Shown piece after piece: positions 9,971 through 63,394 of a stretch of DNA of 64,000 nucleotides. Position 1 is the first letter of the stretch, and the number at the start of each line of letters is the position of its first letter. This DNA is from Antedon mediterranea (Eukaryota; Animalia; Echinodermata). Under the pieces are notes generated by a model. The model saw only the letters and a list, made by a program, of their open reading frames with translations, was not told the origin of the DNA and made no database searches. The stretch covers positions 27,639,175-27,703,174 of the forward strand of contig NC_092677.1 in the NCBI RefSeq assembly GCF_964355755.1. Reading direction: 5' to 3'. The translations under genes were made by a program, and so were the position numbers.

Positions 9971-12421
9971 TTAAAAAATTTGCACACGATTATTTCCAAA
10001 GTCCACAACAATAATATAGCCATCTGGAGAGACACATATCCCTGAGGGTCGATCGAGTTCACCGAGACCGGAACCTGGAGATCCAAATCTGCACAAGAAC
10101 GTACCGTTGGGTTGAAACACTTGAATACGATGATTACGAGAATCTGCCACGATGATGTTGCCCTCTTGATCCACACAAACACCTTGAGGACGGAGGAACT
10201 GGCCGATGTTGCTTCCTTCCGAGCCGAGAAAACGAGCAGACTGAAAATCTGGAAAATCAGGATTTATCACGAGCAAACGATGATTATTGAAGTCGGTTAC
10301 AATAATTTGACCTTCAGGGTTAAACGCCACACCACGAGGAGAATCAAAATGTTTCCATAGAGCACCATCGAATCCGTACTTATTAATAAATGTCCCGTCG
10401 TTATTGAAAATTTGAATACGGTGGTTGCGGGTGTCGGACACCAGGATTTTTCCGTCACGGTTACAAGCAGTGTCCCATGGGTAGTTAAACTGTCCATTTT
10501 TGCTTCCTTTCTCTCCAAATTTAAACAAAAACTGTCCTTCGAAAGTGAATACTTGAATTCGATGGTTATCTTTATCGGCAACAATAATCTTCTCTTCAGG
10601 ATCAATGGCTACTCCAGCTGGTCTATCAAATTGACCGTTTCTTGATCCAGCCGTACCGAATTTTCGCAAAAACGTACCATCTGGATTGAAAATCTGAATA
10701 CGGTTGTTGCTACGATCAGCAATAATCAGATATCCATCTTTGTTTGTTGTGATTCCCCACGGCCGGCAGAGTTCACCATCCCCTTCACCTTCACAGCCAA
10801 ATTCTTTTTGGACCACGCCAATATTTTGATAACTGCGACCCATTCTCACATTAACGGTGAAAGGACTCTCACGAATATGTCTCCCTCTTATTGTAACAGA
10901 CACACTATGTGGCCCTTCTGTTTGCAGCCGGTAACTTATTAGATAAGTTCCATTTTCACGATCTAGAACATCTGTGGGGTATATTCCTCCGTCGGGGCCT
11001 TGTAGAACCACAACAACCGGTTCACCGCCTGTGAACGAGGCTTCGCTGTTATGATCTCTGGCGTGAACGAGAAATGTGCTGAGTTTACCAAGTAACGCTC
11101 GTTTTAAGCCATCACCGGTAGCAATGCAATTTGGAGCGTAAGCACTGCTGCTGACAAACCCTAGGGAGGATATAGCAGTCTGCAAGGCTCCATCTGGTGG
11201 TGTAAACAAGATTGTATCATCCTCGTGAGGCTCAAGTAGATTTCGTAGACCTCTCATCGTTTGCATTTGCTTCACCATTCGATCTTTAGCTTTCAGGATT
11301 GCAATGTCATTTCCACTTTGCATAGCGCCCTCAACTGATTTGATAGAATCCAATATTTTATCCAACCCTTGGCGTAATTCTTCACCTTGAAAATTCAATG
11401 CTTTTTCTTTAACTTTTCGAATTTTATCAACTTTTAGTAACAAATCTCGTTGCCGTTCTTCCAATGCTGTCATGTGTCTCTTAATAGTGGTTTTTACTTC
11501 GTTAACGATCATTTGCGAATGCATCTCAACTCTGTCCGCCATACTTTGTGCCGAGTTAATACTGTCCTCCAAAGTCCTGATGCTGTTGTTTGCTTCCATT
11601 AGTAACCGTTGCGTTATCACTTTGCTGTTTTGCACCGCGTCTTGAAGATACACACAATTGTGACCTCTGTGTTCTTGCATAGTGCATTCCCGGCATATTG
11701 CCATCGAGCAGGTATCACAATAAAGACGGACAACTTCATTTGTGTGGACGTCGCAATAACTAACAGTTTTGTCAAAATTCGGCTGATGGATGATGGAATT
11801 ATAATTTGGCGAGTGTACGGGGCTTTGGTTTTGTTGGCCGTGATCGTTAAAATAATCATCTAAACGACAAATATTGTGATCTTTTGTCATTCGTACCCGT
11901 CGGTGAGCGTGCACGCATCGATCGCAAAGCTGTTCTTGGCATTGCCGACAAATGCAAGTTGCGAGCTGTTTATCCTCGCAGGATTTACAAAGATGGAAAT
12001 CATTTATATCCTTATCATCTTCTTGTCCAACAACACCTAGAATATTATTGAGTATGAGATTTGATGTTAAAGAATTAAGTCCCAGTTCACCCAAAGGTGT
12101 TTCATGAGAACACAGTGGACATTGGATTCTATCTGGTTCCCCTAGCCTTTGTGTTAAACAATGTTTGCAAAACGTATGCATACACGGCAAAACCCTCACA
12201 TCATACACGTTGTGGAACTGTTCTAGGCAAATACAACACATCTGCTCTCCTCCCAGCATACGATCCTTCGACGACCCACCAAAAGCGGCCATTATTTGGC
12301 GATTGGGATTTAAACATGAGTGTGTCTTTCCTACATCAAAAGTATCTTTCTGTATAAATGCTGGTATCCACTCACTTTCGACTTGCTTGCTTGTTTCAGA
12401 GCCTGTTGAGGTGCAAAACAT
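9971..12421 (-). CDS. TRIM71: E3 ubiquitin ligase / RNA-binding protein TRIM71 (lin-41), single coding exon
   Basis: 816-aa ORF with RING (CCICLEQF..LPCMHTFCKHCL..CPLC), two B-boxes, coiled coil, filamin repeat and six NHL repeats ending DFGNNRVQIF; the true start may be the ATG at 12292 (MAAFGG, strong Kozak context). Confidence 0.93.
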   Translation of the reverse strand: MFCTSTGSETSKQVESEWIPAFIQKDTFDVGKTHSCLNPNRQIMAAFGGSSKDRMLGGEQMCCICLEQFHNVYDVRVLPCMHTFCKHCLTQRLGEPDRIQCPLCSHETPLGELGLNSLTSNLILNNILGVVGQEDDKDINDFHLCKSCEDKQLATCICRQCQEQLCDRCVHAHRRVRMTKDHNICRLDDYFNDHGQQNQSPVHSPNYNSIIHQPNFDKTVSYCDVHTNEVVRLYCDTCSMAICRECTMQEHRGHNCVYLQDAVQNSKVITQRLLMEANNSIRTLEDSINSAQSMADRVEMHSQMIVNEVKTTIKRHMTALEERQRDLLLKVDKIRKVKEKALNFQGEELRQGLDKILDSIKSVEGAMQSGNDIAILKAKDRMVKQMQTMRGLRNLLEPHEDDTILFTPPDGALQTAISSLGFVSSSAYAPNCIATGDGLKRALLGKLSTFLVHARDHNSEASFTGGEPVVVVLQGPDGGIYPTDVLDRENGTYLISYRLQTEGPHSVSVTIRGRHIRESPFTVNVRMGRSYQNIGVVQKEFGCEGEGDGELCRPWGITTNKDGYLIIADRSNNRIQIFNPDGTFLRKFGTAGSRNGQFDRPAGVAIDPEEKIIVADKDNHRIQVFTFEGQFLFKFGEKGSKNGQFNYPWDTACNRDGKILVSDTRNHRIQIFNNDGTFINKYGFDGALWKHFDSPRGVAFNPEGQIIVTDFNNHRLLVINPDFPDFQSARFLGSEGSNIGQFLRPQGVCVDQEGNIIVADSRNHRIQVFQPNGTFLCRFGSPGSGLGELDRPSGICVSPDGYIIVVDFGNNRVQIF

Positions 12422-12780
12422 GTCTTAAACCAGGCCACCGTACTCACCCCTTTTCTTGCATTGAAAGCACTTCTGCCAGTAAAAAATTCGTACAAATGAA
12501 AGTGAAGATTGGCGCAGTCGTAGTTTGCGTTTTGGTAGACTCTTATCCAGTTAGTCCCATAGAAACAACTAAATCAAAAACAGCATTCAGTCACTCGAAA
12601 ATAAAGCGATGTGCCAATTTACATTTAATTTACATGTGCAATGTTCATTTCATTGAAATTATATAGATTCGTTATTGCAAATTGATAAGACGCTGATGTT
12701 TTAATAATGTAATCACCTAAAACGGCTGACACGCGTCCAAAGCCTTACGTAACCAGGTCACAGCCGTCTCTGGTTTTAGG

Positions 12781-15077: not shown

Positions 15078-18000
15078 TTAAAATTTTATCATTTTTAATT
15101 TGTCGCTGTATTTAAATGCAGCGAATATGGCTAGTCCTACCACACCCATACCCACAATACTTGGGAAAGACCGTTTCAATCTGTATACCATATTAGGATA
15201 TACCCACATCCAGAATAGAGAGCCAGAGTAACTGCACGCCCTGTGGAATGAACGCCTTTTCTGAACCCTCTCGTAGTATGCCTCTAAATTTGGTCGTTTG
15301 CCCCCGGTGAAGAATCTTTGACCTAAACCAAGGAAAGCAATACGGTGAAGAAGAGTAGCCAAGTATATATCAGCGATAGTAAAATTCTCAGAACACAACC
15401 AAGGACCTTCTTCTGGTGACCCTGTATGGAAAGAAATTTTCAAATAAAGTTTTATTAATATATTTATTGGCATAAAGAAACTATGAACCACCAAGTGATA
15501 TACTGAAAATTAAATAAGTTATAAATCTAATGAGAGTGTGAAGACAAGGAATAAGCCACCCAAGAATATATCCGAGATGACACATTTGCTAGTGTGGACA
15601 CACTTCAGGACAACCAGTGCAAGTTTGACTATACTATGTCTTTACTGTAGTCAGCATTTAAGTTATATAAACTACTGTTTACATTGAAATGTTAATTGCC
15701 ATTGCATAAATAGGTACTCTGAAAGAGTATACAAATAATTGTACCCTTAAATAAATAGCTACTTGTACTGGTAGGGTATAGGGTCATCATAAAGTATCAG
15801 GAAAAGTCTATTTCTTTCTATTATGTAACATTAGATATTATAAATATATAAAACAGTTTAAAATAATTAATAAATTCTTTTCTTTGAGGTTTAAGTTACC
15901 TTCCTTATTATAATTAAGTATAATACTTCAATTCAGTATTATTCCAATACATACCTTGGCCTTTGACCTTACTAAGTTCCTCTTCAATTTCTGTTAAGAC
16001 CTCATCACAGCGTTGTAGACAATTCATACAATATTTAAGGTCAAGTATTTTGTTTACCAAGGCTTGAGTTCTGGCAATCTTTCCCTCGTACATCCCACGT
16101 AGATCAGGTAATTTAGCAGCATAATTCTGCATTACTTTTTGTGGTTTATCAAACTTGGCTGTAAATAGCAAAAACATATTTTCAATAATTACATTATTAT
16201 AGTGTTGTCAAATAAACTAACAATGGTTCAAATGCTTACTATTACAGGGATTTTGGTTCAAATCTTAGTCATACACTGTACAACAGGATTTCTTCTTGTC
16301 CAATACAGTGGCCTCACCTAAGATTTAGTTTATTTTAATTTTTACAATTTTATTTCACCTTTATCCTAGAGAAAAACCACATTAAGCCACCAGTAAGTAA
16401 CATGCTTGAATACATACAAATACATAATTTAAACAAGCATAACATCTACAAAAAAAATCAGTAATTTTGTCACAATTTGACCTTTGACATTTAAACCTTC
16501 TGACGGAAACATACTTGAGTGAATCTTTAGGAAGGATGCTTTGGTTTCCATCCTGTAACCCAAGTCATGTGATTACTGTTGTATATGTTGAAATACTAAT
16601 AACATTAATTAACTTAAAGAATGGAAATCACTCACAAGTAATCCAGAGTATATATATATTCAATAATTAATTTAAAACCATCTAAAAACTTAATAATAAT
16701 AATTTATTTTATTTACCACGAACTTGAGCTGGATTAAAAAACCTTTTCTTGGTAGATTCAATTTCTGGATGTAACATTGTTCCAAATGTAATATATTCAA
16801 TTTCCACAGACTTCAATAAAGATTTAAAATGTTTCACTTTGGCACCATCATCGGTTGATGGGTCAGGGGTCAAACTAGGTGCTAAATGAATGAGAAAGAA
16901 AGAAAATGTTATAAATGTCATTGTGCTGATGATATATCAATCATCATTACTGCAGGGGAACATGTTCAGCCAAAAACAATTATTCTACACAAAACTAACA
17001 TATTGCTACGCATTCATAAAATGTGTCAAATTCACAAAAAACAAAACTGCAAAAAAACAAAATGACCTCAGTTTTTGCTAATCAAACTTTTTAAATGAAA
17101 ATATTGATTGCATAATATCTTTATTTTGAAATTACAAATAAATAAAAATAGTGAATTAAAAATATCAAGTATGAACTACTAATGAATGATAACAGAACAA
17201 TACTATGGCCGTTTTCCAAAAACAAGAAAATAGGTGTTGTGTTTTAAACAGTTATTTACAGGTGTTGTGTTTAAAACAGGTTTAAGTGTGCTTGTTGTGT
17301 ATTTAAAATATGAAATGAAAATAAAATATCTTTATGTATTGTGAGTTTGATAAGTTAGAAAGGATCTTATTGTTTAAATTTAATATGGATTTTTTTCCAG
17401 CAACAAACTAAGGTGTTGTGTTTAAAACAGTTTTAAGTGTTCTGCTTTTGTATTTATAATATGAAACACCAATCAAATTTCTTCATTCATGTACAGTATT
17501 GTGTAAGTTTGATAATAGAGTTGGATAAGATCATATATTGTTTAAATTTACATTGCGAAGTACAAATACCTTGTGGGGTTATTTGATCCAAGTAATTTAA
17601 TATGGCTTCAGAGTCTATGATGAGACGCTTATTGTGCTGGACGATTGGGACCTCTCCATGTGGGTTTAGCCTGATGAACCATGGTTCAACTTGCTCTCCT
17701 AGTTGAATATTCACCAGTTTTTTTCGATATGGTACTCTCTTCTCCTCAAATCCAAGTCTGGCCTATACAAAAAGTATAGAAAAAATGGTTTATTTTTTAA
17801 ACAAATAATTGATTCTGTTTGTGAAATGTTACATAAGTCCAGGCCTACTACACCGGGTCCAAGGAAGATAAATAGTATGAAGAAAGAACTGTAATTAATA
17901 GGGTCAAGCTAGGGAGTTGTTTTTTAAACTCCCTCTGGACCACTTCCCAACCACTGCATAATGCCATAATACGGCTCACGGACGTGGTGGAGTCGACGGA

Positions 18001-18149
18001 AATCAACTTGTTGTGTTGGCCTTATTAGGCCTAGATAAATTGAACTTAGTTAGTCTTCGAAATTTGTAGTTTAAAATAATAAATTATGCACTTACTCGTT
18101 GTGAATAAAATGAGGATTCTGCATGGTATAATAAAGGTGAAGAATACAT
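15078..18149 (-). CDS. GDAP1: GDAP1-like GST-fold tail-anchored protein, paralog a
   Basis: Exons 18149-18096, 17762-17570, 16881-16717, 16158-15955, 15421-15078 with GT-AG junctions in frame; LYHAESSFYSQR, EPWFIRLNPHGEVP, DSEAILNYL, WLCSENFTIADIYL motifs and a C-terminal TM segment. Confidence 0.88.
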
Positions 18150-19055
18150 ATTAATTAAAAGGGAAAGAACTTTTATTAGCAGAAAAATTTGGTAAAATTC
18201 GCCGCTCTCTCGCCCTGCTAGTAGAAATTCAACATCGAAAAGACACGCCTACTTTTCTAACATCGTCACGCTGTAATTTTTGCTAATGAATATTCAACAA
18301 TATTTCACTAAGCCAAAGTTTACTGTTTTAGCGCGCTTTTGTTTCTTTTTTTTTATTTCCACCTCCCAAAATATATACCTCTCCACCATTATTATAAATA
18401 ATATAAACATAATGTCCAAATAACATAATCGCTCTGACTGCACGAGATGACTAGGTATAGGACCTACAGGTTGATTTGACATCAACAATAATTGCACGCG
18501 TGCGTGTCAATATTGTGCGTGTGTGTAAACAGCAATTCAACCTTTACAAAGATGACAGATGTGCGTCAGAGCGTCCCTAATGCAATTCTAACATAACGTC
18601 AAGTATTAGGCTTAATATATCCCGCAAAATTTGACCAAATCATGTTATTAAAAAAATTGGACAGTCATAGCCCAAGGTGATTTTAATAAAAACTGTATGA
18701 CCGTGCCAAATGCTAGATAGGTCACTAGCCAAAAAGGCCTAATAAGCGTTTCAGATTAAAAAAGACAATGTGTTCGTGCCTTCGTTTTTATTACTATATA
18801 TATTAGACACCATGCATTGTGCGTTTGTCTGGATTGGATCGGATACGCGCAAAAACGAAACAGTGGGAATTGTCGTTAGTCCGATTTTAAAGCTACGTTC
18901 ACACTAAGCCAGGATTCGAATCAAATCAAAATTAATTTCTTTTCAAATCCAAGAAAGTCGAAGCTTGTGTGTGAAGCTCAAATATTATAATGCACGACTT
19001 ACGTTTTGACTATCGTTTTGTGGGATAGTAAAAATAATGATAATTTTGCTTCAAA

Positions 19056-19210
19056 TGCTTGGTTCCCACAGAGACGTAACACAAACGACGTAAGGCAACG
19101 TAAGGGATTTGGCCAATCACAAGCGATGGATTTATTCGACTGTCCCTTGTCATTGGTCAACTCGTTTGCGTTGCGTCTCTTACGTCCTTGCGTTAGTGGG
19201 AACTAAGCTC
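19056..19210. mobile_element. MITE family B (Harbinger-like)
   Basis: GCTTGGTTCCCAC...GTGGGAACTAAGC termini with internal CCAATCACAAGCGA palindromic core. Confidence 0.75.
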
Positions 19211-20259
19211 CAGTAGAATATTATAATTATATTTTTAAAAATCGCATAAATATAGGTCTGTGAAATTGGTTCAAATGCAACACTAGCTGTCTGTTGTCAA
19301 TCAACACTACACAATAATGATATATCGTTGAATGATTTCATTTACATTTTGACGTTTAGCTCAAGGCTATTATTTTGGAAGATATTGCAAATTTAGGTTT
19401 TTTTATTGTGTTTTATGGGATTTTAAAAACCAGAATGAGTAAACGATTTCAATCAACGTCACCCACAAACTAATACGGGTTATTCGAATCTTCAACAACA
19501 TGGTAGGACCATTGGACGTTACAGGACGCGCCGGCAATATTTTGGAATTAATAACTTCTACTTATTTTTTTCTCCACAAGATTTCTAAAGACAAAAAACA
19601 CAAAACACTTAAATAATAATTGTTATAAGCAAGCAAAAAAACGATGCAAATAATACAAAAAACCCCAAATGGACACGCATCATTAGATTGCAATGGAATT
19701 AATAACTAACAATTTGGTGTCAATCAAGGAATTACGAAAATCGGAAAAACTTTCGAAAAAATCCGTCAAAGCAGTAGCAGCTGATAGATATAAACTACGT
19801 AAAAAGTTTATTAAATGTTGTCATTACTTTAAATTTGCACTTATTATTTGGAACTATAATTGAAGAAAATGAAGAAATTGGCTAAAATAAAATACACGAG
19901 ATTGTAAGAAAAATGGAAATGATTTTGACAAGATAAAATGACATAATTCTAAAGGGAAATAACTCATTATAAAGAACACGAAAATAGGTTGCCTTCGCTA
20001 GGGAAAATATTAAAAAACATGTCGTCTGTCAAATTCAACTAATGTTTACAACATTTGAGGGCACATTTTAAAATATCCTGGACGTCCTATTTGTATATAT
20101 TCGGCATCATTAATGAATTAACATAGATATCTGAAAATTAATCTTTTTTTTACCAGTTAGTTTGGTTTCCAATCTAGAATGACGTACGCGCAACGCATGT
20201 ATTAACGTGACCAATAACAAGCGACCGTTCAGCAGGACGATGATCGGCGTCGCTTGTTA

Positions 20260-20680
20260 AGCCCGGCGCACACTAGAGCTTCCGCCGGCTGAGCCAACTG
20301 GCACGAGTAACACTTTGCTCACAGTGTGCGCCGGGCCGGGGAATTCGTGAGGAATCGGCTACGCATGCCGCTGAGGAAAATATCTATCATGTTTAATATT
20401 TTTTGGCACGCGTGCCATTTTCCGCAAGTCTGCGCCGAACGTAAGCAGATAGCTCACTAAAAAATTCCACTGCGAATGACATGTTCTAATTTATTATATG
20501 TCAGGTCAGCGCGTGCCGTATAGCGTATTAAGTAACTATCCAATCAGCAAATCGCGTACTGAAGGCGTTTAGTGTGCGTCCGATAGAACGCGATCACAAT
20601 TTGCGGCAAATTTTTTAGTGAGCCAAGTGTTACTCGTGCCAGTTGGTGGCTCAGCCGAAAGCTCTAGTGTGCGCCGGGCT
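20260..20680. mobile_element. PIF/Harbinger-type MITE with TTA target-site duplication, adjacent to a truncated family B copy
   Basis: TIR AGCCCGGCGCACACTAGAGCTT and AAGCTCTAGTGTGCGCCGGGCT; TTA on both sides (20257-20259, 20681-20683). Confidence 0.85.
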
Positions 20681-20705
20681 TTACGTGTAGTAGTAGTTAC
20701 GTCCT

Positions 20706-21070
20706 TAAGCGTGGTTCCCACTAGCAACGCAACAAGTAGACGCAACGCAAGCGAGTTGACCAATCACAAGCGACTGTTCGAATAATCCATCGCTTGTTGG
20801 TAAACTCGCTTACGTTGCGTCGCTAGTGGGAACCAAGCTTTACCTACAGAGGTTCCCCTAGCGACGTAGACGCAACGCAAGCGAGTTGACCAATCACAAG
20901 CGACTGTTCGAATAATCCATCGCTTGTTGATTGGTGGTAAACTCGCTTACGTTGCGTCGCTAGTGGGAACCAAGCTTTACCTACAGAGGTTCCCCTAGCG
21001 GCGTAGACGCAACGCAAGCGAGTTGACCAATAAGAAATCACTAACGTTGCGTCTCTGGTGGGAACCTAGC
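20706..21070. repeat. Tandem array of family B MITE units (~137-bp period, ~2.5 copies)
   Basis: Repeated GGTTCCC(A/C)CTAGC..CGCAACGCAAGCGAGTTGACCAAT...GCTAGTGGGAACCAAGCTTTACCTACAGA. Confidence 0.85.
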
Positions 21071-21795
21071 ATTATATTTTATAGAATGGCACCTTCATAT
21101 TGTATTATATAAAGTTCTTTTAACAGTCATTGGTATTACTTTATTACGATTACTTTGGGTCAAAATCCCAAATTTTCCAGCCGAATTTAGGAGGCCTACA
21201 GTCTTGTTATTTATCATAAACAAAATCTTTCGTAATATTACTTGGACGAAACGAGTAATTTGACCAATCACAAGCAACAGTTTGGATGACCCATCATGAT
21301 TGGTGAGATTACTTGCATGCGGCGCGCTTACATTGCGTCGTGTCTAATGGGAAGCTTAGTAATTAATAATGGATACATCAGAATCCATATTAATTTCAGT
21401 TTTAATTAAAATAAATATATTAATGTTATCTTTATTTAATATAATAATACCTAATATAATAATGACTAAAAATTACCATTACAAAGTAACAGTTCCTTAA
21501 AGAAAAAAAAATTAACAAACTCAAATAAATAATAGGTTTATCTAATAGTCTTTAGCTGGATTTCATGATTAACTACAATTATTGTACAAGCCCTGCTATT
21601 GCTATTATACAATACCATACCCATGCTTAAAATATATACTTTAAAATATTATGAATCAATAATATATATGCTAATAATCATATTTTATTTAATTAATTTT
21701 ATTTTATTTTTGCACACATCTATTTTGGTTAAAGTTTGTCTTCCGATCCAGAATTTATTCAGGGAAATAAGCAAAGAAATTGCATTAGTTTATGA

Positions 21796-24377
21796 TTACC
21801 TACGATGTTTATAATACATAAAGAAGGCGGCCCCTAAAACACCTATAATTGAAACATATGGAGCTGTTCTCTTGATTTTATACTTAAGAATCGGGATAGC
21901 CAACGCCCACAGTGCTCTGTTGGAATACAAACAAGTTTTACGAAAAGAAGGTCGTTGTAAAACTCGCTGATAATACGCTTCTATATGCGGCCGCGTTCCC
22001 CTTCTGAAGAATTTCTCGTCAAGTCCAATTGAAACTAAACGATGAAGAATTGTCGATAAAAATATATCAGCAATTGTGAATGTTTGTGAGCATAGCCATG
22101 GTAACTCCTCTGATGACGGTGCTGATTCTATAAAAAGTTGAAATGAGAAAATATCAATCATTATTGTGACACATTTGAACTTTATGTGAAAGTTAGTGAG
22201 CTTCAATCAGCCACACTTCTAAAAGGAACTTTAAAACCAAAGTGTTTACCAATTTCATTTCACACAATATTCTGTAGTTCTATTACATTACTCTAGTTGT
22301 TAACAATTATTTTCTGTTTACAGTTAGTAATTATGGGAACAAGGGTTAAACAGTTCCTTTCCCAAGTATACTAAGCAGCCTAATATCTTCTTGTAATAGA
22401 GGCTAACTTAAACCACACATTTGTACATCCTTCCTAAAGACCTTACTTACTCTCCTGGGTAAGTAAGCCAAATGTAGGACATTAAATATCTGAGCTAGCT
22501 TAATAGAAACGACATGACGCTAATTAATTACACTTTTTTGTAATAGAAAACCGGAAAAAATTAAAAAGTGTTGAATTAAATGTCCTAGCTTTTGCATTAA
22601 AATATTTAGAACTTAGGGTTTGGTGGGGGAGGGAGGGTGGTTGTGTTTAGAGGAGGGGGAGGGGTGGATTATAATCTGACTATGACTTACCGTTAAACTC
22701 TTGAATAACCTGAACAAGTTGCGCTTCAATTTCATCAAAAACTTCTTGGCAATGTTTAATTTCAGCTAGCAGAACATCAAGTTGAATACCACCTTTCTTG
22801 TCATATGTCAGAATCTTAGCATCGTATGCAAACTTTAAGTCTGGATATATTCTGGAGTACCACTTCATAATACGGATACCTTTCGACAGTTTTACTATAA
22901 TTTATAAACAAAAGAAAATGAATGAAACCTGAAAATGAATGAAAGGTTGGTACATATTATTAACATTTTGTGAGTACATAATTACAGCCTTGATAAAAAA
23001 AATGGTAAAATAAATGGTAAAAAAAAAATTAAAATTTTTTTTTTCAAAAATGGTGAATGGTCAAGTTTTGTGTACATTTTTAAATTAATAACAAATAAAT
23101 TTAAATTAATAAAAAATAAATTCAAATTAATAAAAAATAAATGTCATTGGTAGACTGTCCAGTTGGGTGACTAGGCTTCACATCCTGGGATTAAACAAAA
23201 ATTAGAAGAGATCTTTAGATATGCAACAATCTAGGATTGACTTAATATAATGAGTCACCCAGTAGAATAGGACTCTTTGGATTTAACAGGATTTGAACCA
23301 AATGCCTTGGGATTGGTAAGCAATCACTCAACTACAACGTCACTTACATTTTACAAAATGTCCTAACCATGCATTAAAATCATTCACTTTCACTGCTCCT
23401 ATTTCTTGCGCATGATGTTTACTTCCAAGCATCAAGATACCAATATTGACAGACTTAAGTAGGTTCTTAAATCGGTGAACTTTGGCACCTTCTTTGCTTG
23501 ACATGTCAGGGGTTAATCTTGCTCCTAATATAAGCAAAAAAACGAATTTCTATAAATTAAAATAAATATCTAAAATAATTTTTCTTCTAAATTGCTTTTA
23601 AAAATTAATTAGAGCTTTTTTTTTTTTCCAAATATAAAAATATTTTTTTATGACAAGTTTTTAAAATGTGTAATACATTGCTAAAGTAGGATGATGTCAA
23701 TTTAAATTTATACTGCAAAGGGGACAGAGGAATTACATTACTTTACTTTTTTTAACATAAAAAAGGGGTTGTAATGCAACGCGGACAATTAGGAAATAAA
23801 CAATCTTGTGACGGTGTTGATACTGAGAGTCAACTAACCCTCTGGTGCAATCTGGTCCAGATAATCTAAGATAGCCTCCGAATCTATTATAATTCGTTTG
23901 TCGTGCTCGACAACCGGTACCTCTCCTTTTGGGTTGATGCGCATGAACCATGGCAACAGGTTTTCACCAGCTTTGTGAGTCACATGATATCGACGGTGTT
24001 TTACACCTTTTTCTGCAAAACCAAGCCTTGCCTGAAAAGAGAAAGAGATTCAACTATGTAATTAATGTAATCAGTTATTAAATGCACCATGTGACCTTGT
24101 GATTGAACTTCAGCTGAATAAATGAAAAATGGAGCAGTTCTATGGTAAAGTTCTATAGGCCACAGAGTTGATAAGATTTAGATTAATCAATTTTGAATCC
24201 TTACATCACTCTCATAAATAACTAATGTCTATAGCTTGCGAGTAGCTGGCAGGCTGTATAATGATTTTAGATCTAACTATCTACTGTAAAGACATAGGCT
24301 GGCTACTACAACACAGTACTACTTACCCTCTGTGAATAAAATGAGCTTTCGGCATGGTATAACAAAGGTAGCGACAT
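21796..24377 (-). CDS. GDAP1: GDAP1-like GST-fold tail-anchored protein, paralog b
   Basis: Exons 24377-24327, 24031-23839, 23524-23348, 22894-22691, 22127-21796; same intron phases as paralog a, with exons 2 and 4 of identical length (193 and 204 nt); C-terminal TM segment plus KHRR. Confidence 0.88.
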
Positions 24378-53530: not shown

Positions 53531-54410
53531 ACACTGCTATTTTTGCTGTGGTTTCCAATTAACAATACAACGTAGGCTAAAAGAAATCATTGATTCGTAT
53601 TGTCTTCATGTCTCGGAAGTATAACCGAGCAAAGAATTGCTGTACTGGGTGTGTAAGATACATGGTAGGTTCTGTAGTCCCTGTTAAACAAACTAGGTTT
53701 ATTGGTATTAATATAGGCAGGTAATTTGAAGAAGACTGTATAGCAGCCGGTAGATCATATCCTAAGCATGGCTTTATAAGCGGCTAAATTTGACTGTAGC
53801 TCGTTCTTTGTCAATGACGAAATTATAGTTGTTGCGAAACCGATAGTCAGAAATATGCTGAATGTCCTAAAAGAGAAATTGTAAGTATATGGTATTCTAA
53901 GCAACAATAGCTAAGCTTGGTCCACAACCGGGAATACATGGACATACACTATTCTTGAGTTTTTGCTGTTGCCAACACTCATGTTGGAAATTCCATGTTT
54001 TTCGTTTATTGTGTGCAGACATAACACTATAGTGGCGAATGTACCATGAGAAAAATCGATTTTCTCTGAATTCAAACACCTACCAAAATGCCTCCACCAT
54101 TAAATATAATGGACTGTCGAACCGGCATGACATTTATTTATATTTTATTTAAGCTTACGTCATTATTTTCAATTATTAATACATTCTGAATTTAAATGTT
54201 TCATATGCACATTTTCAAATGTAGAGTCCGAGAAATTGGCGGGTGATATAGGATATCGTTCCGGTAGGTAACATGCCATTTTATTCCTATTTTGATTGAC
54301 CTACTGTACTCAATAATTAAGAGCCTGAAAGAACGAAGTCAACAATATTCGAGTTACAAATTGACATTACGGACAACACGAACTTAGACCGAGGCGTCGA
54401 AAAGGAAACA

Positions 54411-57400
54411 ATGGGCCAAAACCACACGGGCCTTAGCGAACCAAGCTCAGATGAAGAAAAAAGGAAAACTACAAAGAACAAAAACGGAGGGAAAACAAGT
54501 GAGAAACAGAAGAAAAAATTGTCAATAAAATCTATGAAAAGATCTATGAAACGTAGCAAAGATCAACCTGAATCTTTACAAGAAGCAACAAAACCAGCAA
54601 ACACATTTGAAAATAAATGTTCGGAAGATAGGAGAGAGGAGTCGGATGTTGCATCTTCTACGTCAGAGCAATATTTGTCGTCTGCTAAATGCCGAGAATC
54701 AGAGAGCGGAGTGACGTCATCACCTAAAGATTCGTCAACGACAAATAAACCAGATGTCAAAGGTGAATACGAACTACACATAATATTCAGTGCTTACAAT
54801 TAAGGGCAGTATATATTAAGACTTATTTTCGTAAAAAATAGGGTTTGTGATACATTTCAGATATTACCTAACTGAGGCCTTATCATTTCAGAAAAAGATT
54901 TGTCTTCAAATGATTGTCAGGCGAAGATGGAGTCACACGTTGATACACAAATGCATACTATTGACATGAATATAGGACATCTTCCAATCATCAGAATTGA
55001 CCCAACTCAGAAGAAGCAGAAGAAACAAGCTGGAGAAGACATAACACGTGCTTTAACAGATGAGGTCACTAATGACTCAAACGTTGATACAGGTAGGTTG
55101 GAATTTAGTGTACTACTGTTAAGCCTAAAATAAACTAAAAATGTTCAGTTGACGTCACTACAAAGATTATTTCAAACTAACCAATCTCTGTTTTCAAAAC
55201 AGACATGTGTGAGACATGTGGAATCAAGAATGGCACAATGTCCTGTGATGTATGTGAACATTCCAGATGTGATAGTTGTGATAAAAAGTGGCACAACAAT
55301 CCGAAAAGAAGAAGTCATCAACGAAGATCTAAAAAAGAATCCTTGAATAAATCTATTGAAATAAAAGATAATTCTGATACAGGAGAAACTGAAAATGAAA
55401 CAGAAGTGAATGGAATTAAGGACAATACTGACACATTATGTGAGACATGTGGGGTTAAGGTTGGTACCATGACTTGTGATGTATGTGGGAATTCTAGATG
55501 TGATAGTTGTGATAAAAAGTGGCACAACAATCCCAAACGAAGAACTCATCAACGAACAGAAACTTTAAATAAATCTATTGAAATGAAGGAGCATTCTGAT
55601 ACAGGAAAAGCTGCAAAAGAACCAGAGTTAAATGGAACGAGGAAAGAGAGCCTAAAAGAAAATGAAAGTTTAGAAAAGTCATTGAAATCGGAAGAAGTTC
55701 AACAAAGAGGACAAAGTGTACCATTAAACAGCATTGAAATGCGATTAGAGCAAAAGAATTTAGAAAATATTGGACGTAATTATCCTGAATTAAAAAATTA
55801 CGCAAATGTTCCTGAAGTATCTCACGAAAATGGTAGAGATAAATCGGATGTCTTTCAACCAAATCAGATGAGTACATGTTACAGGTCAGATAACGAAGAA
55901 CTGTTAGGTGACAATAGCCAAGGTAAAAACGAAATACATAAGCCTAACATTTAGATATAACATGTTTAATTCAGTTCAAATAGACAGAAACAACAACTGG
56001 ATATGTTTAACAAATACTAAATGTTTATTTTATATAAAAGATGAGCTGTGTGTGCTCTGTGGTGTTGAAAAAGCTAGTATTCCGTGTCAACAGTGTGGTG
56101 ACGCAAGATGCGTTCAATGTGACGCAAAATGGCATCGGCACAAAAACAGGAACAAACATATCAGGAACAAGACGCAAGTTTTGCAAGAGATTGCTGATGG
56201 AAATCCTAAGAAAGATACAGCCTCGACGGCGGAAGAGTGTGAACCAGGAATCAAGAAAAATGATGAAAGAACCAACAAAACTGAATACCAAGAAAATGAA
56301 AATGATTTTGACAAACCGACTGAGTTTGGTAATTTAACTTTTTACATTTACATATTTGGTAGATTTTATAGTCAAGTCTGTAACGAAAAGAAGACGTGCT
56401 TAGATACGATAGAGCTTTTGTACGGCGCATGCGTTATATTTGTATCTTGGATGCAGATCAATGGATTTAACTTCGTTGTTGTACTGGTGATAGAAGTAAT
56501 AATTTTGTACTTTAAGCTGTTTTAATGTGATTAAAATGATTTCATTATTTTGTTTTTATCAAAACAGACATTTTTACTGAAGGCCTTACTACTCCAGAAA
56601 AAGCTTTATCTTTAAATGACCGTCAAACGAAAGCGGATTCACATATTGATACACAAAAACATACTATAGACATGAATATAGGACCTCTTCCAATCATCAG
56701 AATTGACCCAACTCAGAAGCAGAAGAAACAAACTGCAGAAGGTATGACACGTCAAGGTTTAACAGATGAGGTCACTAATGACTCAAACGTTGATACAGGT
56801 AGGTTAGAAAATATTTTCTGCAGTTAACGTCATTTCAAAGATTGTTTTACAAGTTAACCAATCTCTCTTAATTAAAGTAACTAAATATAACGTTTTATTC
56901 CAAACAGACATATTATGTGAGACATGTGGAGTAAAGAATGGCACGATTTCCTGTGATATATGTGAAAATTTCAGATGTGATAGTTGTGATAAAAAGTGGC
57001 ATAACCACTCCAATAGAAGAACTCATCAACCAAGACCTCGAAGGGAAACATTGAATAAAACTACTATTGAAACGGAAGAGAATTCTAAAAGAGAAGAAAC
57101 TGCAGAAGAACTAGAGTTGAATGAAATGACAGAAGAGAGCATAAAAGAAAATGTTGCAAACGTTGGACATTTCGAAAGTTTCGAAAAATCATTAAAATCG
57201 GAAAATAAAAAAGTTCAACAAAGAGGACAAAGTGTACCATTGAGCAGTAACATTGAAGTAAACTTAGAGCAAAAGAATTTAGAAAATATTGGACGTAATT
57301 ATCCTGAATTTGAAAATTACGCAACAGTTTCTGAATTATCTCACGAAAATTGTAGAGATAAATCAAATATCTTGCAACCAAATCAGATAAGTACAAGTTA

Positions 57401-60400
57401 CACACCAGATAACGAAAAACTTTTAGGCGACAACATTCAAGGTAAAAATGAATTACATAACATTTAGATTGTATATGACAGAGTATAGTTTAGTAATTAA
57501 AGATATACATCAACAATTGGATATGTTTCTCACACTTTTTTTTCTTATTTTAAAAGATGAGCCGTGTGTTCTCTGTGGTGTTGAAAAAGCTATTATTCCG
57601 TGTCAACAGTGTGGTGACGCAAGATGCGTTCAGTGTGACGCAAAATGGCATCGGCACAAAAACAGGAACAAACATATCAGGAACAAGACGCAAGTTTTGA
57701 AAGAGATTGCTGATGGAAATTCTAAGAAAGATACAGCCTCAGCGGTGGAGTGTGAACCAGAAATCAAGCAAGAAACAACAAACGAAACTGAAAACCAAGA
57801 AAATGATTTCGACAAAACAAACAAAACAGGTATTTCAATAATTGACATTTATATTTGGCAGGTTTAATAGTCGAGTACTTAGTAACGCCTTTTTAATATG
57901 ATAACTATATTATTTCATTCATTAACATTTAACAAAAATCAAAACAACAACTTAATTGAGGCCTTTCCATTTCAGAAAAAGCTTTGAATGACTGTCAGGC
58001 GATGATGGAGTCACACGTTGATACACATATGCATACTATTGACATGAATATAGGACATCTTACAAACATCAGAATTGACCCAACTCAGAAGCAAGCTGAA
58101 GAAGACATGACACGTCAAGCTTTAATAGATGAGGTCACCAGTAAAGAAGCAAAATTTGATGAAGGTTGGTTTGGAGTTTATACCTATATTAGAATATTAA
58201 AGCTTATGTACCTCTGTATACGTCTCTCCAAATAAAATTTATGAAGATAATTATAAGAATTTTAATAACGTGTTTTTTTTTAAAATAAAAAACAGACACA
58301 ATTTGTGATACATGTGGAGTTAAGGTTGGTACAATGACTTGTGATGAATGTGAAAATTCCAGATGTGATAGTTGTGATCAAAAGTGGCACAACCATTCAA
58401 AAAGAAGAACTCATCAACGAAGACATCGAAAGGAAACATTGAATAAAACTACTATTGGAGGAATGGAAGAGAATTTGGATAGAGGAGAACCAGAGTTGAA
58501 AGGAATGAAAAAGGACAGCGTCAAAGAAGCCTTTGTGAACTTTGGAAATTCGGAAAATTTAGAAAAGTCATTGAAATCGAAGGAAAATAAAGAAATTCAA
58601 CAACGTGTGACATTGCACAACATTGAAATGAGCTTAAACCAAATGCATTCAGAAAATATTGTGATCAAATCGTTTAAAAATGATCCAATTGTATGTGAAG
58701 ACATTGCCGACAGTAGAGGTAATGTCGATGTCAAACTGGACACGACACCCAGAGGTTATAGGTCAAACAGTATTGAAATGCAATTGGACCAAATGAATTC
58801 AGAAAATGTTGGAGGTAATCCTGAATTTAAAAACTACCAAAAGGGTCCTGAATTATTTCCCAGAAATGGTGGAGATACATCGGATGTCTTGCAACCAAAT
58901 CAGACAAGTACAGGTTATAGGTCAGATAATGAAGATATTCAAGGTAAAAATGAAATACATTATTATACCAGTATACAATTGATATGTTTCCCACAAATGA
59001 TAATGGTTTGTTTTATTGTTTTTAAAAGATGAGCCGTGTGTTCTCTGTGGTATTGAAAAAGCTAGTATTCCGTGTCAACAGTGTGGTGACGCAAGATGCG
59101 TTCAATGCGACGCAAAATGGCATCGACACAAAAACAGGAACAAACATATCAGGAACAAGGCGCAAGTTTTGCAAGAGGTTGCTGATGGAAATCCTAAGAA
59201 AGATACAGCCTCAACGACGGAGTGTAAACCAGAAATAAAAAAAAATGATAAAGAAACAAAAGGAGGAACTGAATGCAAAGATAATGAAAATGATTTTGAC
59301 AAACCGACAAAAGGTAAAGGGTCATTTTTTCTGAATTGTGAAAACTGTTTTGTTTATAAAAAAAACAAAAAAACAAGAGGAAAATGTTTGTTATCATGCT
59401 AAGAAAATGTAATAAAGAAAGTATGTTTATTTTGAATTGTTCCTTATGATTGAAGCATAGGTTACCGTACCATTTAGGAATATACTATTCTAGATCTCAA
59501 TTATTTATTGTATTATTATGTTAAAGAACCATGTGTTCTTTGTGGTGTCGATGACGCAATTATCCACTGTGACGAGTGTGGTGACGCAAGATGTATAAAA
59601 TGTGACACGAAATGGCATCGACACAAGAAGAGAAATTCACATAAACGAAACCAGCCTCCTTCTAATATCGAAGGTATAATAGGTTACAGCAGCACTATTA
59701 CACTACCTAACATAATGCCAGAAAAGGAGTTCAGTGATCCTGGAATCGGAGACGGTGAGTTGTTCCTTATACCAAGATATATTAGGCCTACTTATGAACT
59801 GATGATTGAAATGCGCATATAATCGCGCTTTCGTTTCAAGAGAATAAATTCTTCAGTTGCCAAAAACAGACTTCAATGCATGTTATTTGTTCATTGCAGA
59901 GATTGAACCATGTGGCATTTGTGGCAAGGAAGATGGAGCTATTATTTGCAATGAATGTGTATATATTTTCTGTAAAATTTGCGATGAAAAATATCATCAT
60001 CATAAAGATAGAAAGACACACGAAAGAAGACACAAAGGTAACAACAATTTGTTAACAAAATATAATTTTAATTGTATCCGTAATCTATAAGACAAAACGA
60101 GTATATATATGAATATACGCATGCGTATAATCCAAGCGGCTTTGGGTTCGCGTGCTAATGAATTCACCTCGTGTGGAGAACAGCTTAAACTTTGTGTTGA
60201 CCGCAAAATAGTCCGTTTTTCAGTTAATATTATATTGACATCTTACAGAAAGTAACCAGAAAATATCGGACAGAGTTGAAAATAATCTGAATCAGCCGGA
60301 AACGATGCCAGTTGGCATAAACGAGGTTTCCCAAAAACTAAAATCCGATTATGAAGTTGTAACGGAGAAAATCAACGCATTGGAATTAAGATTACAACAT

Positions 60401-62172
60401 ATGGACTACAAAGGGGATGAAGAACGCAAAGATATAGAAGGCGAACATAAGGAATTATTACGAAAAAGGCAATTACTTATGGTACGAATAGAAGCTGTTG
60501 ATGCTATTGAGAACACATCACATTCAAGCCATGCTGGTAGCACTTCTCTAAACACCTGGACGACCAAAAGTGAAGTTGCTAAATCTGATAAACCTCGAGT
60601 CGTTTCTGGAAGGTCATCACTACGATATGTCATAGATCACGACGTTGAAACAGATGGTCCCGTTGAATACGAAAACGGTAAGAACAAAATAAATAATGAA
60701 TTTGAACTCATTATTCAGTAGTACCGAAAATACGAAAATAGCACAATATTGTGCGTTGTTGTTGATAATTAAGGAGATTCTGTATACTTTAGTCGACTCA
60801 CGCTGAAAACAAGTACAGCATTTCTTATTATTTAATTTCAGTAGCAAATCAACAACATGACTCTTCGATGCAAGATGACGTAATGATGCAGGTTAGTTCA
60901 ACTTGACATGAACATATGGAATATACAGAATAATATAGAACATTAAAATACCAAATCTTTAATGGCGTCAATTATTTAAAATCAAATAATATAAATATTT
61001 TTCATTTTAAGGAGGCGAGAAATCAGGGTTTTGATTCAGATGATATACGAATTGCCAAAGAGCAATGTAAACAATCTGGTTGTAATTTTGTTCAATGGTT
61101 AAAATTCAATTATAAGGCGTTTATTGCCGAAGTATGTAAATCCGTAACAAATGAACTTCATCAGTTAATACCAGGAGTCCGAATTGCAGAAGCCTCGGTG
61201 ATACGGTCACTAGTAAAGTACCCCGGTGACGTGAACAGAGCAAAAGCAACGTGTGTTCGTAAATTCGAGGCTCAGGTAGGGACTCACTTATTTTTGCAAT
61301 AGCATAGTTCTTGGTGAAACTAAAGACAGTTTGACCATAGAAAGTAACTTGATTTGATAGACGCGCTATATAAATAGTCGCGCGCGTACGTAAGATGTTA
61401 GTACGGTACTTTAAAAATAAGGTGTCATCATAATAATTAAATGTTACGCAGTCGCAGGTAAACTAAAAATAAATAAAATTTAATTATTGTAGATTTGCGA
61501 GATCCTTCAATTCGAGTTTAGAAAAGACAGTCATAAACTTACTATGCACGAGGTTTCACAGTATCTGTACAAATGCAACGGTGATGTGGATAAGGTAATG
61601 GCGATGATTAAAACAGACGGCTACAAGCTTGACATTGCGGAGAGAATTTGGAAGTATGAAGACGAGATTGAGTCTGTATCTGTTCTATTGAAGAAACCAG
61701 AAGATTTTCAACAAGAAGAGGTGCGGATAACTTATTAAAACTTGGTTCTTAATTGACGCACGGAATGGCGTACGCGCAACGCAAGTGAATCGACCAATCA
61801 CAAGGGACAGATTGATCCATTGCGTCGTGATTGGTTAGTTTACTTGCATTGCGCTTACGTCCTTACGTACGACCTAGTTGAAACCAAGCTTAAAAGATCG
61901 AGATCCAACATAACAAGTTATTGTTTGCTCAACAAATACTAATGTATGTTTTAAGTGCTAGATTTCCATTTATTTACTTTATATTGTTTTGACAGAGACA
62001 CAAACGCTTGATAATGGCGGAGTTTGACCTGACCTGGGATGTAGCATCTAGATTGTTTGATAAGATTCAGGCGCATCGGCGGAATACAAAGACTGACGAC
62101 AGTGAATTCAGTAGATGGGTACTGAATACACTGCGCTACGCATCGAAACACAGAACAAATCCGACAAAATAA
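54411..62172 (+). CDS. HOIP/RNF31-like protein with nine B-boxes, coiled coil and HOIP-type UBA region, no RBR seen (~1,734 aa if all exons are used)
   Basis: Exons 54411-54762, 54892-55092, 55203-55922, 56041-56328, 56598-56798, 56908-57441, 57557-57829, 57976-58164, 58296-58943, 59029-59313, 59527-59754, 59900-60037, 60249-60677, 60842-60891, 61012-61275, 61493-61720, 61996-62172 (TAA); B-box pattern Cx2C..Cx2C..Cx2CDxKWH..RxxH; start codon uncertain. Confidence 0.75.
61738..61891. mobile_element. MITE family B, degenerate (others near 21250-21357, 37020-37110, 47870-48030, 50650-50790)
   Basis: CTTGGTT...CGCAACGCAAG..ACCAATCACAAG...GATTGGT..CTTGC.TTGCG...AACCAAGCT. Confidence 0.7.
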
Positions 62173-63394
62173 TAATAACAATCTTTCTCCAGAAGACAAC
62201 CGAAGTCAAACGTGAAGACAGTCCAGTCCCTAGGCCTACTTTTTATTTCCTTTGAACTCACCCGGTGTACCGCAAACGTGACTTTACTAATACAACTTAT
62301 GAATGCTTCTATGATAAGTAACTTTAAAATTCAATGGAAATTCATTAATTCAATTCTTTGCTTCGGAATCTCTGGTCCATAGAAAGTAAAATTACATATA
62401 AATGAATTAACAATAATCACTCAAGACTGTAATAATTACTACTAATTGAGAGATACACTTTAGGCTTAAGAAAGTAGAAAAGTGGCAATATACTGAACGC
62501 AAATGGAAAAAAACGCAGCATGTAGTAAAATACGATACGATAGAGTAAACATGCCAAAAAAACCTTTAAAAAACTTATATATCGATATAATTATATTTAG
62601 GCCTATGTCTGAGCCATCTTATAATTGATATGCTGTAGTTAACAATAGTTATTTTATTAGTTGCCTATCTACAAAATGATCTATTTCGAAAACAATGTTA
62701 TTTATTTCGATAATGGTTTCTTAAATACAAAAATAATATTAATATAGGTCTATTCAATTAAAAAATATGAGCATAATTTCATTACGTAATCGTAAAATAA
62801 ATAAGAAAATAATAAATATATGTGTACCTGGATGATGTCAATAATTATCTCATACAAAAAAAAAACAAAACAAAAAGAGCAGCAGCGTGCAAAACATGGT
62901 AGACATTTTTGTATTGTAGAAGATTGAGGTAGGTTTCAGCTACTATTTTCAGCTTGATTAGGTTGATAAATAATATTTCTTACTGAATGTTTTAAAAGTG
63001 TATGAGACCGTTCGGACTTTACAGTTTACACATGTAATGGTCGCATGAGGTGTAAATTTTGAGATATAGGCCTAAGGAACAATTTGAACGCGTAAAAAGG
63101 TGTAAATGTAAATTTTTGTCCCTAGAGTAATTTAGGTTATACATGTGTATTTGATTTTAAAATCTGAACACAGCTCAATTGAGTTTAAAGTCCGAGCACA
63201 GCCCCCGAGTAATTTATGTTAAACGTGTAATCGAGTTTAAAGTCCGAACACAACCTTCAAGAGATAAAATGCTATATTTTTAAGCCACAGTCCTAGTAAA
63301 AATATGACCTTTTTAAGTTTTCTAATGAAATTCATTATACCATCGTACAAAAATAAAACATTGTTGTCAATGAAATATTATGACATGAAATCAC

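What the first reader, a model, noticed from the sequence alone, without database searches (positions are those of the whole stretch)
54892..59754. B-box array built by triplication of a three-exon, phase-1 symmetric module
Seen: three tandem modules (54892-56328, 56598-57829, 57976-59313), each with a spacer exon (SH.DT..HTIDMNIG.L..IRIDPTQ), a type-I B-box plus acidic linker exon, and a type-II B-box exon. Intron ends are also similar between copies. Every exon from 54892 to 60677 has a length divisible by 3 and phase 1-1 junctions, and all indels between copies keep the frame. Inference: recent intragenic duplication under selection for the frame, allowing combinatorial exon skipping or copy-number polymorphism that tunes B-box valency.
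Basis: partly seen in the sequence, partly recalled or inferred. Interest (0 to 1): 0.7.

Follow-up and report, generated by a model that had tools for sequence, protein, structure and literature searches.

The report
Feather-star HOIP copy lacking its ligase
The repeated exons belong to a spliced feather-star gene, a shortened copy of the ubiquitin ligase HOIP that has lost the enzyme part, kept the partner-docking part and multiplied its zinc finger nine times, so it likely acts as a non-enzymatic adaptor or decoy.

Summary
The triplicated three-exon module is real: 12 of 12 exons are phase 1-1, and spliced contigs from two coded organisms cover all three modules. It is Antedon mediterranea XP_071957741: nine HOIP-type B-boxes, a helical segment and a HOIP UBA pair, ending where HOIP's RING1 would start. 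PUB, NZF and RBR are absent. Anneissia japonica has an orthologue with the same end and an independently expanded array. Both species also keep a full HOIP, apparently on the same scaffold. The paralogue's UBA region is better conserved between the two species (59%) than HOIP's own (42%). The 'spacer' exon carries a motif repeated three times here and five times in Anneissia. Corrections: module 1 has two B-boxes, exon A2 starts at 56568, and both B-box classes share one ligand spacing. Skipping of B-box exons is not shown: apparent skip joints lie in identical sequence and cannot be phased. Best reading: a catalytically dead HOIP paralogue, likely an adaptor or decoy for HOIL-1/SHARPIN-type partners (untested). 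The exon duplication is ordinary; the gene was not found in the papers searched.

The parts
54225..54762 (+). First coding exon (ATG 54411; in-frame stop upstream at 54318); low-complexity charged N-terminus, no PUB domain
   Evidence: Contig of run X5 covers 54244-54760 and joins to 54892; its loose end matches an upstream exon ending at 53664; no Pfam hit
54892..55092 (+). Exon A1, spacer with conserved motif copy 1
55203..55922 (+). Exon B1, two B-boxes (internal 219-nt duplication) plus linker
56041..56328 (+). Exon C1, C-class B-box plus acidic tail
56568..56798 (+). Exon A2, motif copy 2; the acceptor seen in use lies 30 nt upstream of the homologous one at 56598
   Evidence: X5 joint 56327>56567; RefSeq
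56908..57441 (+). Exon B2, B-box plus linker
57557..57829 (+). Exon C2, C-class B-box plus tail
57976..58164 (+). Exon A3, motif copy 3 (alternative acceptor 6 nt further in, isoform X3)
58296..58943 (+). Exon B3, B-box plus linker with internal duplication
59029..59313 (+). Exon C3, C-class B-box plus tail
59527..59754 (+). Exon C4, older C-class B-box; its tail is orthologous to the Anneissia gene
59900..60037 (+). Exon E, ninth B-box
60249..60677 (+). Exon F, helical (coiled-coil-like) segment, conserved in Anneissia and weakly similar to the same position in HOIP
60842..60891 (+). Exon F2, phase 1-to-0 linker exon
61012..61275 (+). Exon G, first part of the HOIP-type UBA pair (PF16678)
   Evidence: 40.3 bits, cut-off 22.4; spliced
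61493..61720 (+). Exon H, second part of the HOIP-type UBA pair
61996..62172 (+). Terminal coding exon, helical extension after the UBA pair; stop TAA where HOIP's RING1 would begin
   Evidence: A contig of run X9 runs from 61994 through the stop to 62390

Best explanation
This is a spliced gene encoding a copy of the ubiquitin ligase HOIP/RNF31 that lacks the PUB, NZF and catalytic RBR domains, keeps the HOIP UBA region and carries nine HOIP-type B-boxes, and it likely works as a non-catalytic adaptor or decoy that would bind HOIL-1/SHARPIN-type partners. Shown: exon structure, splicing, domain content, an orthologue in Anneissia, and a separate full HOIP in both species. Inferred history: a local duplication of HOIP in the crinoid lineage, before Antedon and Anneissia split, lost both ends. 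Because the B-box and spacer exons are phase 1-1, unequal crossing-over could then add copies without breaking the frame, and it likely did so separately in each lineage; the A-B-C triplication is the Antedon round. Inferred function: the conserved UBA region would dock ubiquitin-like domains and so compete with, or localise, the active ligase. The B-boxes and the repeated motif, spaced by near-neutrally evolving linkers, would give multivalent binding to a partner not identified here. The array most likely acts as one mainly constitutive chain.
For: PF16678 above cut-off in the window protein and the Anneissia protein, with no PUB or RBR family hit in either; both families are hit in 3 of 3 full HOIPs scanned in the same call, PUB just under its cut-off in one. 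A search of 1.84 billion representatives with the last 222 residues gave 6 hits: self, the Anneissia orthologue, three full HOIPs and one amphioxus UBA protein. A profile search of PDB sequences put three HOIP UBA chains on top, E 4e-10 to 2e-9, next hit 0.023. The AlphaFold model (pLDDT 84.4) has HOIP UBA chains as its top 8 Foldseek rows, E 0.001-0.016, and as top VIA row, Z 10.4, rmsd 3.1, 109 aligned, next Z 7.0. The crinoid HOIP B-box matches the array at 40-53% identity, and no PUB or RBR match lies in the window. Both paralogues end 44 and 35 residues after a conserved Trp; RING1 starts 40-47 residues after it in 5 of 5 HOIPs checked. In the UBA tree the paralogues join crinoid HOIPs at 95/95 and share an insertion with them. 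UBA identity is 59% (112 of 190) between paralogues and 42% (79 of 187) between HOIPs. B-box dN/dS is 0.07-0.52, against 0.47-0.96 in spacers, linkers and tails. Human HOIP 466-695 is the HOIL-1L/SHARPIN-binding module (PMC11322871, passages). RBR-less short isoforms of fly LUBEL were proposed as adaptors (PMC5090701, passages).
Against: No binding was tested, and no crinoid HOIL-1 or SHARPIN sequence was available, so their presence is not shown. The UBA region is only 23-26% identical to crinoid HOIP and may have changed partner; fly LUBEL is active without these partners. The alternative tree, with all echinoderm HOIPs in one clade, is not rejected (AU p 0.062). Foldseek E-values are all above 0.001, and Z 10.4 lies in the range the tool calls common for helical folds. 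Only two species carry the gene in the searches, and one search missed known members P0004-P0006, so the range is poorly sampled. Linkage to HOIP rests on equal contig lengths. DNA beyond 64000 could not be read.
Confidence: 0.55

Rival explanations
1. The paralogue has left the LUBAC pathway: its UBA region binds ubiquitin or a new partner, and the B-box and motif array serves an unrelated scaffold role.
For: Long stem branch and 23-26% identity to HOIP, yet 59% between paralogues: the pattern of a shift in function followed by constraint. The repeated motif is absent from 8 of 8 full HOIPs scanned. Invertebrate RNF31 has a membrane-shaping role apart from immunity (PMC12778051, passages).
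Against: The retained piece matches the whole UBL-binding module and ends just before RING1 in both species. Thirteen positions are invariant across the six UBA rows.
Confidence: 0.25
2. One reading: the symmetric exons are used for combinatorial skipping or copy-number polymorphism that tunes B-box valency.
For: 12 of 12 exons can be skipped in frame. One of four Anneissia isoforms lacks 76 residues in frame. Contig depth in DNA run X1 is 51-75 over parts of modules 1-3, highest at B2, against 37-43 in the flanks, not explained by GC. The number of intact B-boxes differs between species, 9 and 7.
Against: None of the 3 Antedon isoforms lacks an exon, and no shorter form of 958 residues or more was found. 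12 of 16 coding junctions are seen unambiguously as neighbours in run X5; three skip-like joints cannot be phased and one junction is not listed. Three modules are seen in both coded organisms. The tool states that depth is no copy number.
Confidence: 0.15
3. The gene is a decaying HOIP duplicate and the array is selfish, near-neutral expansion.
For: 12 of 13 listed coding differences in run X5 change an amino acid, in line with neutrality (p 0.21 against 79% expected). Three Anneissia B-boxes have lost ligands.
Against: Open frame of 1744 codons, spliced contigs in two organisms, 9 of 9 B-boxes with all ligands, and a UBA region more conserved than HOIP's. 12 of those 13 differences lie outside B-boxes.
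Confidence: 0.04
4. The modules are an assembly artefact.
For: Uneven depth in run X1.
Against: The copies differ by 8-25% per exon. Module-specific pieces occur in runs from more than one sample and two coded organisms.
Confidence: 0.01

Closest known systems
HOIP/RNF31, catalytic subunit of LUBAC (crinoid XP_071958434, XP_033122782)
   Same: HOIP-type B-box, helical segment, UBA pair and following helical extension, in the same order
   Different: No PUB, NZF, RBR or LDD; nine B-boxes instead of one; a repeated motif not found in HOIP; a separate gene beside an intact HOIP
Short RBR-less isoforms of Drosophila LUBEL (PMC5090701, passages)
   Same: HOIP-family protein without RBR, proposed to act as an adaptor
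   Different: Those are isoforms of the ligase gene; this is a dedicated paralogue with an expanded B-box array
Amphioxus HOIP-UBA proteins without RBR (P0008, P0016; P0018 with BIR and RING)
   Same: HOIP UBA pair kept without RBR
   Different: No B-box hit; P0008 and P0016 group with amphioxus HOIP, so they arose independently; may be gene-model fragments
Disordered proteins built by tandem duplication of symmetric exons (PMC3632108, abstract)
   Same: Symmetric exons, internal tandem duplication, linkers poor in hydrophobic residues with short motifs
   Different: Nothing in principle: the duplication mode is the known one
TRIM (RING-B-box-coiled coil) proteins
   Same: B-boxes followed by a helical segment
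   Different: No RING, no B-box2; the B-boxes match HOIP, not the RING-B-box-NHL gene in the same window

Membership tests
HOIP/RNF31 RBR E3 ligase | HOIP-type UBA pair (PF16678) | tested here: met
   40.3 bits for exon G and 49.3 bits for the whole protein, cut-off 22.4; PDB profile and fold matches
HOIP/RNF31 RBR E3 ligase | HOIP-type B-box | tested here: met
   P0005 B-box hits 9 of 9 window B-boxes at 40-53% identity, E 2e-8 to 3e-3 in the window
HOIP/RNF31 RBR E3 ligase | RING1-IBR-RING2 plus LDD catalytic core | tested here: not met
   No PF18091 hit; stop before RING1; the IBR score of P0001 is a sum of B-box cross-matches with 0 stretches passing alone; none in 3 Antedon and 4 Anneissia isoforms
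HOIP/RNF31 RBR E3 ligase | N-terminal PUB domain | tested here: not met
   No Pfam hit; in-frame stop upstream of the ATG; no tblastn match
HOIP/RNF31 RBR E3 ligase | NZF zinc finger between B-box and UBA | tested here: not met
   No cysteine between residues 1371 and 1540
HOIP/RNF31 RBR E3 ligase | Binds HOIL-1/SHARPIN UBL domains | not testable with these tools
   No partner sequence was returned by any search
HOIP gene family (descent) | Groups with crinoid HOIP in a tree | tested here: inconclusive
   Clade 95/95 and a shared insertion, but the alternative is not rejected, AU p 0.062; descent from the HOIP family as such is clear
TRIM/RBCC | N-terminal RING | tested here: not met
   No RING family for the whole protein at E 0.01
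TRIM/RBCC | B-box2 (His as second ligand; pattern recalled) | tested here: not met
   0 matches; 9 of 9 have Cys there
Symmetric-exon tandem duplication | Homologous exons and introns in tandem with equal phases | tested here: met
Alternatively spliced exon array | Transcripts that skip array exons | tested here: inconclusive
   No skip among 3 RefSeq isoforms; contig joints cannot be phased; one in-frame skip outside intact B-boxes in Anneissia
Calcineurin PxIxIT docking motif | Core P-x-I-x-I-T in a disordered region, binding calcineurin | tested here: inconclusive
   Two of three Antedon copies have P-x-I-x-I; none of the 8 copies ends in T; A3 lacks the Pro; motif description from PMC6728138 passages; binding untested

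The most novel reading that the evidence does not exclude
Feather stars evolved a dedicated, enzyme-dead HOIP mimic: a natural brake or scaffold for linear ubiquitination. It would sequester HOIL-1/SHARPIN-type partners through a strongly conserved UBA region and gain avidity from a repeatedly re-expanded array of HOIP B-boxes and an undescribed linear motif, possibly a calcineurin-docking site. Module number may still vary between haplotypes.
Probability: 0.25. Interest if true: 0.75.

Novelty: new variant of a known kind. Interest (0 to 1): 0.5.

Why it matters
LUBAC is the only known writer of Met1-linked ubiquitin chains in mammals (PMC11322871 and PMC11399889, abstract starts in search listing). 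To my recollection HOIP is usually single-copy and the job of its B-box is not settled. A lineage that keeps an intact HOIP and also a conserved ligase-less copy with 7-9 B-boxes offers a natural test of two questions: whether a pseudo-HOIP can regulate linear ubiquitination, and what the HOIP B-box binds, since the array is a ready multivalent bait. The exon triplication by itself is ordinary.

Tried and rejected
No whole genome is held, so HOIP's position and DNA beyond the window could not be read. No RNA holder listed on record; X5 and X9 are treated as RNA only because their contigs join exons at GT-AG ends. Single-sequence PDB searches found nothing useful. The single-sequence fold was poor (pLDDT 57.9) and was not used. 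The ESM Atlas gave only scores of 0.80 or less. Word-index protein searches found only the protein itself, and the profile search missed known members, so they say little about range. Complex prediction of the helical segments of HOIP and the paralogue gave no answer (score 0.00, alignments not used). The tree was discarded because the cut included RBR columns; it was redone. P0018 was left out of both trees. The B-box tree left out the most decayed Anneissia copy and the second Patiria B-box, and has only 38 columns. My NZF pattern was too narrow to match crinoid HOIP's NZF, so the cysteine list is used instead. The motif pattern was drawn from the eight copies, so its shuffle control (0 hits in 2000 shuffles each) is not independent. 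The runs test for mosaic modules gave p 1e-4, but a segment table gave p 0.06, and neighbouring substitutions inflate the first: gene conversion is possible, not shown. The X9 joint from C1 to C4 was rejected as a skip because its last letters are of the C3 type; the X9 joint from B1 to C2 cannot be told from B1 to a C1 that kept ancestral letters. Paper searches that found no description of this gene: (listings only); one search returned nothing. No supplements were read; gene-family tables in crinoid genome papers could list it. No earlier scan notes matched.
Full report
Observation. Self-comparison of the window shows three tandem repeats between about 54.9 and 59.3 kb, 71-79% identical with introns included. 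A 17-exon model from ATG 54411 to TAA 62172 is open throughout. All 12 exons from 54892 to 60677 have GT-AG ends, lengths divisible by 3 and phase 1-1. With exon A2 starting at 56568 the model equals RefSeq XP_071957741 of Antedon mediterranea, named 'uncharacterized protein', letter for letter. Exon B1 holds two B-boxes, so the gene has nine. All nine keep eight zinc ligands with one spacing, and none fits a B-box2 pattern (recalled pattern).

Splicing and copy number. No run is on record as RNA, but contigs of X5 (organism A, another sample) and X9 (organism B) join exons at GT-AG ends. In X5, 12 of 16 coding junctions are seen unambiguously between neighbouring exons. Three joints look like skips or back-splices (A1 to B2, A2 to B1, B2 to C3). 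Each has only 22-24 letters on one side, inside 41 letters shared by the ends of A1 and A2 or 30 letters shared across B2|C2 and B3|C3, so they can neither show nor exclude skipping. B3 to C3 is not listed. The three RefSeq isoforms differ by one or two residues at alternative acceptors. Organism B has pieces of all three B exons and three kinds of C-exon end, about 3-9% different from the window, so the triplication is likely older than that split. One loose end remains. In DNA run X1, contig depth is 37-43 in the flanks but 55.6, 64.3, 74.8 and 51 over the end of B1, B2 and C2-A3; run X6 is also higher over B1 and B2. GC content does not explain this. The tool warns that depth is no copy number, so an extra copy on another haplotype is a hint only.

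What the gene is. Exon G scores 40.3 bits against the HOIP UBA pair PF16678, cut-off 22.4. A search of 1.84 billion representatives with the last 222 residues returned six proteins: the protein itself; Anneissia japonica LOC117121669 (58% identical); full HOIPs of Antedon, Anneissia and Patiria; and an amphioxus UBA protein. Pfam finds PUB, UBA and RBR families in the three HOIPs (PUB just under its cut-off in the Antedon one) but only B-boxes and the UBA pair in the two paralogues; the IBR score of the window protein is a sum of B-box cross-matches. The HOIP B-box matches all nine window B-boxes at 40-53%, and no PUB or RBR match lies in the window. No cysteine lies where HOIP has its NZF. 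A profile of the UBA region finds the three HOIP UBA chains in the PDB at E 4e-10 to 2e-9. An AlphaFold model with pLDDT 84.4 has these chains as its best fold matches, though Foldseek E-values stay above 0.001. Both paralogues stop 44 and 35 residues after a conserved Trp; RING1 begins 40-47 residues after it in five HOIPs. A contig of X9 runs through the stop into the 3' flank, and none of seven annotated isoforms has an RBR. In both species the paralogue and HOIP lie on contigs of equal length (28,587,047 and 1,915,095 bases), which I read as the same scaffold.

History. In a tree of the UBA region (12 rows, P0018 left out) the paralogues join the crinoid HOIPs at 95/95 and share an insertion absent in starfish and amphioxus; the alternative is not rejected, p 0.062. 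Anneissia has seven intact and three decayed B-boxes. In a 38-column tree the Antedon C1-C3 copies form a clade (97/98) inside a C class shared with Anneissia, and the four Antedon B copies group at 85/90. So the C class is old and the expansions are likely separate. The C4-E junction is orthologous in the two species. Between modules, dN/dS is 0.07-0.52 in B-boxes and 0.47-0.96 in spacers, linkers and tails, on few sites. Of 13 listed coding differences in X5, 12 change an amino acid and 12 lie outside B-boxes (the lists were cut by the tool). The UBA region is 59% identical between the paralogues but 42% between the HOIPs, which argues against decay. The 'spacer' carries a motif of the form M-x-I-x2/3-L-P-x-I-R, three times here and five times in Anneissia, and not in eight full HOIPs. 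It resembles the calcineurin-docking PxIxIT motif (PMC6728138, passages) but lacks the final Thr; this is a lead only.

Mechanism. The structure and history above are shown or well supported; the function is inferred. [quoted passage not shown] The paralogue keeps this module and drops the catalytic core, so it would most simply act as an adaptor or competitor for such partners, with the B-box array adding avidity for a target not identified here. Fly LUBEL has three annotated RBR-less isoforms proposed as adaptors, but it is also active without partners (PMC5090701, passages). Invertebrate RNF31 has a membrane role as well (PMC12778051, passages). Aplysia has putative HOIP and HOIL1 orthologues (PMC9334734, passages); crinoids were not checked for HOIL-1 or SHARPIN. 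A changed partner is therefore a serious rival. PMC5031558 (passages) shows that an unrelated B-box, that of CYLD, mediates dimerisation; the passages shown say nothing on the HOIP B-box.

Comparison and novelty. Growth of disordered proteins by tandem duplication of symmetric exons is known (PMC3632108, abstract). The gene is not a member of the RBR ligases, since the defining core is missing, but it descends from the HOIP family. Amphioxus has RBR-less HOIP-UBA proteins of separate origin, without B-box hits. Searches of the held library found no description of the crinoid paralogue (listings only, no supplements read).

Noticed in passing
window 55762-58058: Contig depth in DNA run X1 is 1.3-1.9 times the flanks over the end of B1, B2 and C2-A3; GC does not explain it. 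Possible extra module on another haplotype.
   Followed up: partly
window 56041-59313 (C exons): The three C-class B-boxes are 95-97% identical as protein; in organism B one contig over the C tail has about three times flank depth, and its C3 body maps best to C1. Possible gene conversion.
   Followed up: partly
window 56568-56597: Thirty bases of former intron have been added to exon A2; organism B also extends this exon.
   Followed up: yes
P0018 (Branchiostoma belcheri): A protein joining part of a HOIP UBA pair to BIR and RING domains; real chimera or gene-model fusion.
   Followed up: no
P0008, P0016 (Branchiostoma): HOIP-UBA proteins without RBR that form their own clade next to amphioxus HOIP, suggesting a second, independent truncated copy.
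   Followed up: partly
P0007 residues 402-417 (Patiria HOIP): The segment right after the first B-box faintly resembles the spacer motif and could be its origin; weaker in Acanthaster.
   Followed up: partly
window 9974-12424 (-): A single 817-codon frame with RING, B-box, filamin and NHL domains (TRIM71/lin-41-like, name recalled), apparently without introns.
   Followed up: no
window 15081-24369 (-): Two similar GST-domain genes in tandem (GDAP1-like, name recalled).
   Followed up: no
window 26559-52274: Other neighbours by Pfam: FIT, an AAA ATPase (VPS4-like, name recalled), actin, a cofilin/ADF protein, a Speriolin_C protein and a CRAL-TRIO protein.
   Followed up: no
window 61764-61868 and 62362-62416: Short repeats with very high contig depth, one in the intron between exons H and I and one after the stop codon.
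   Followed up: no
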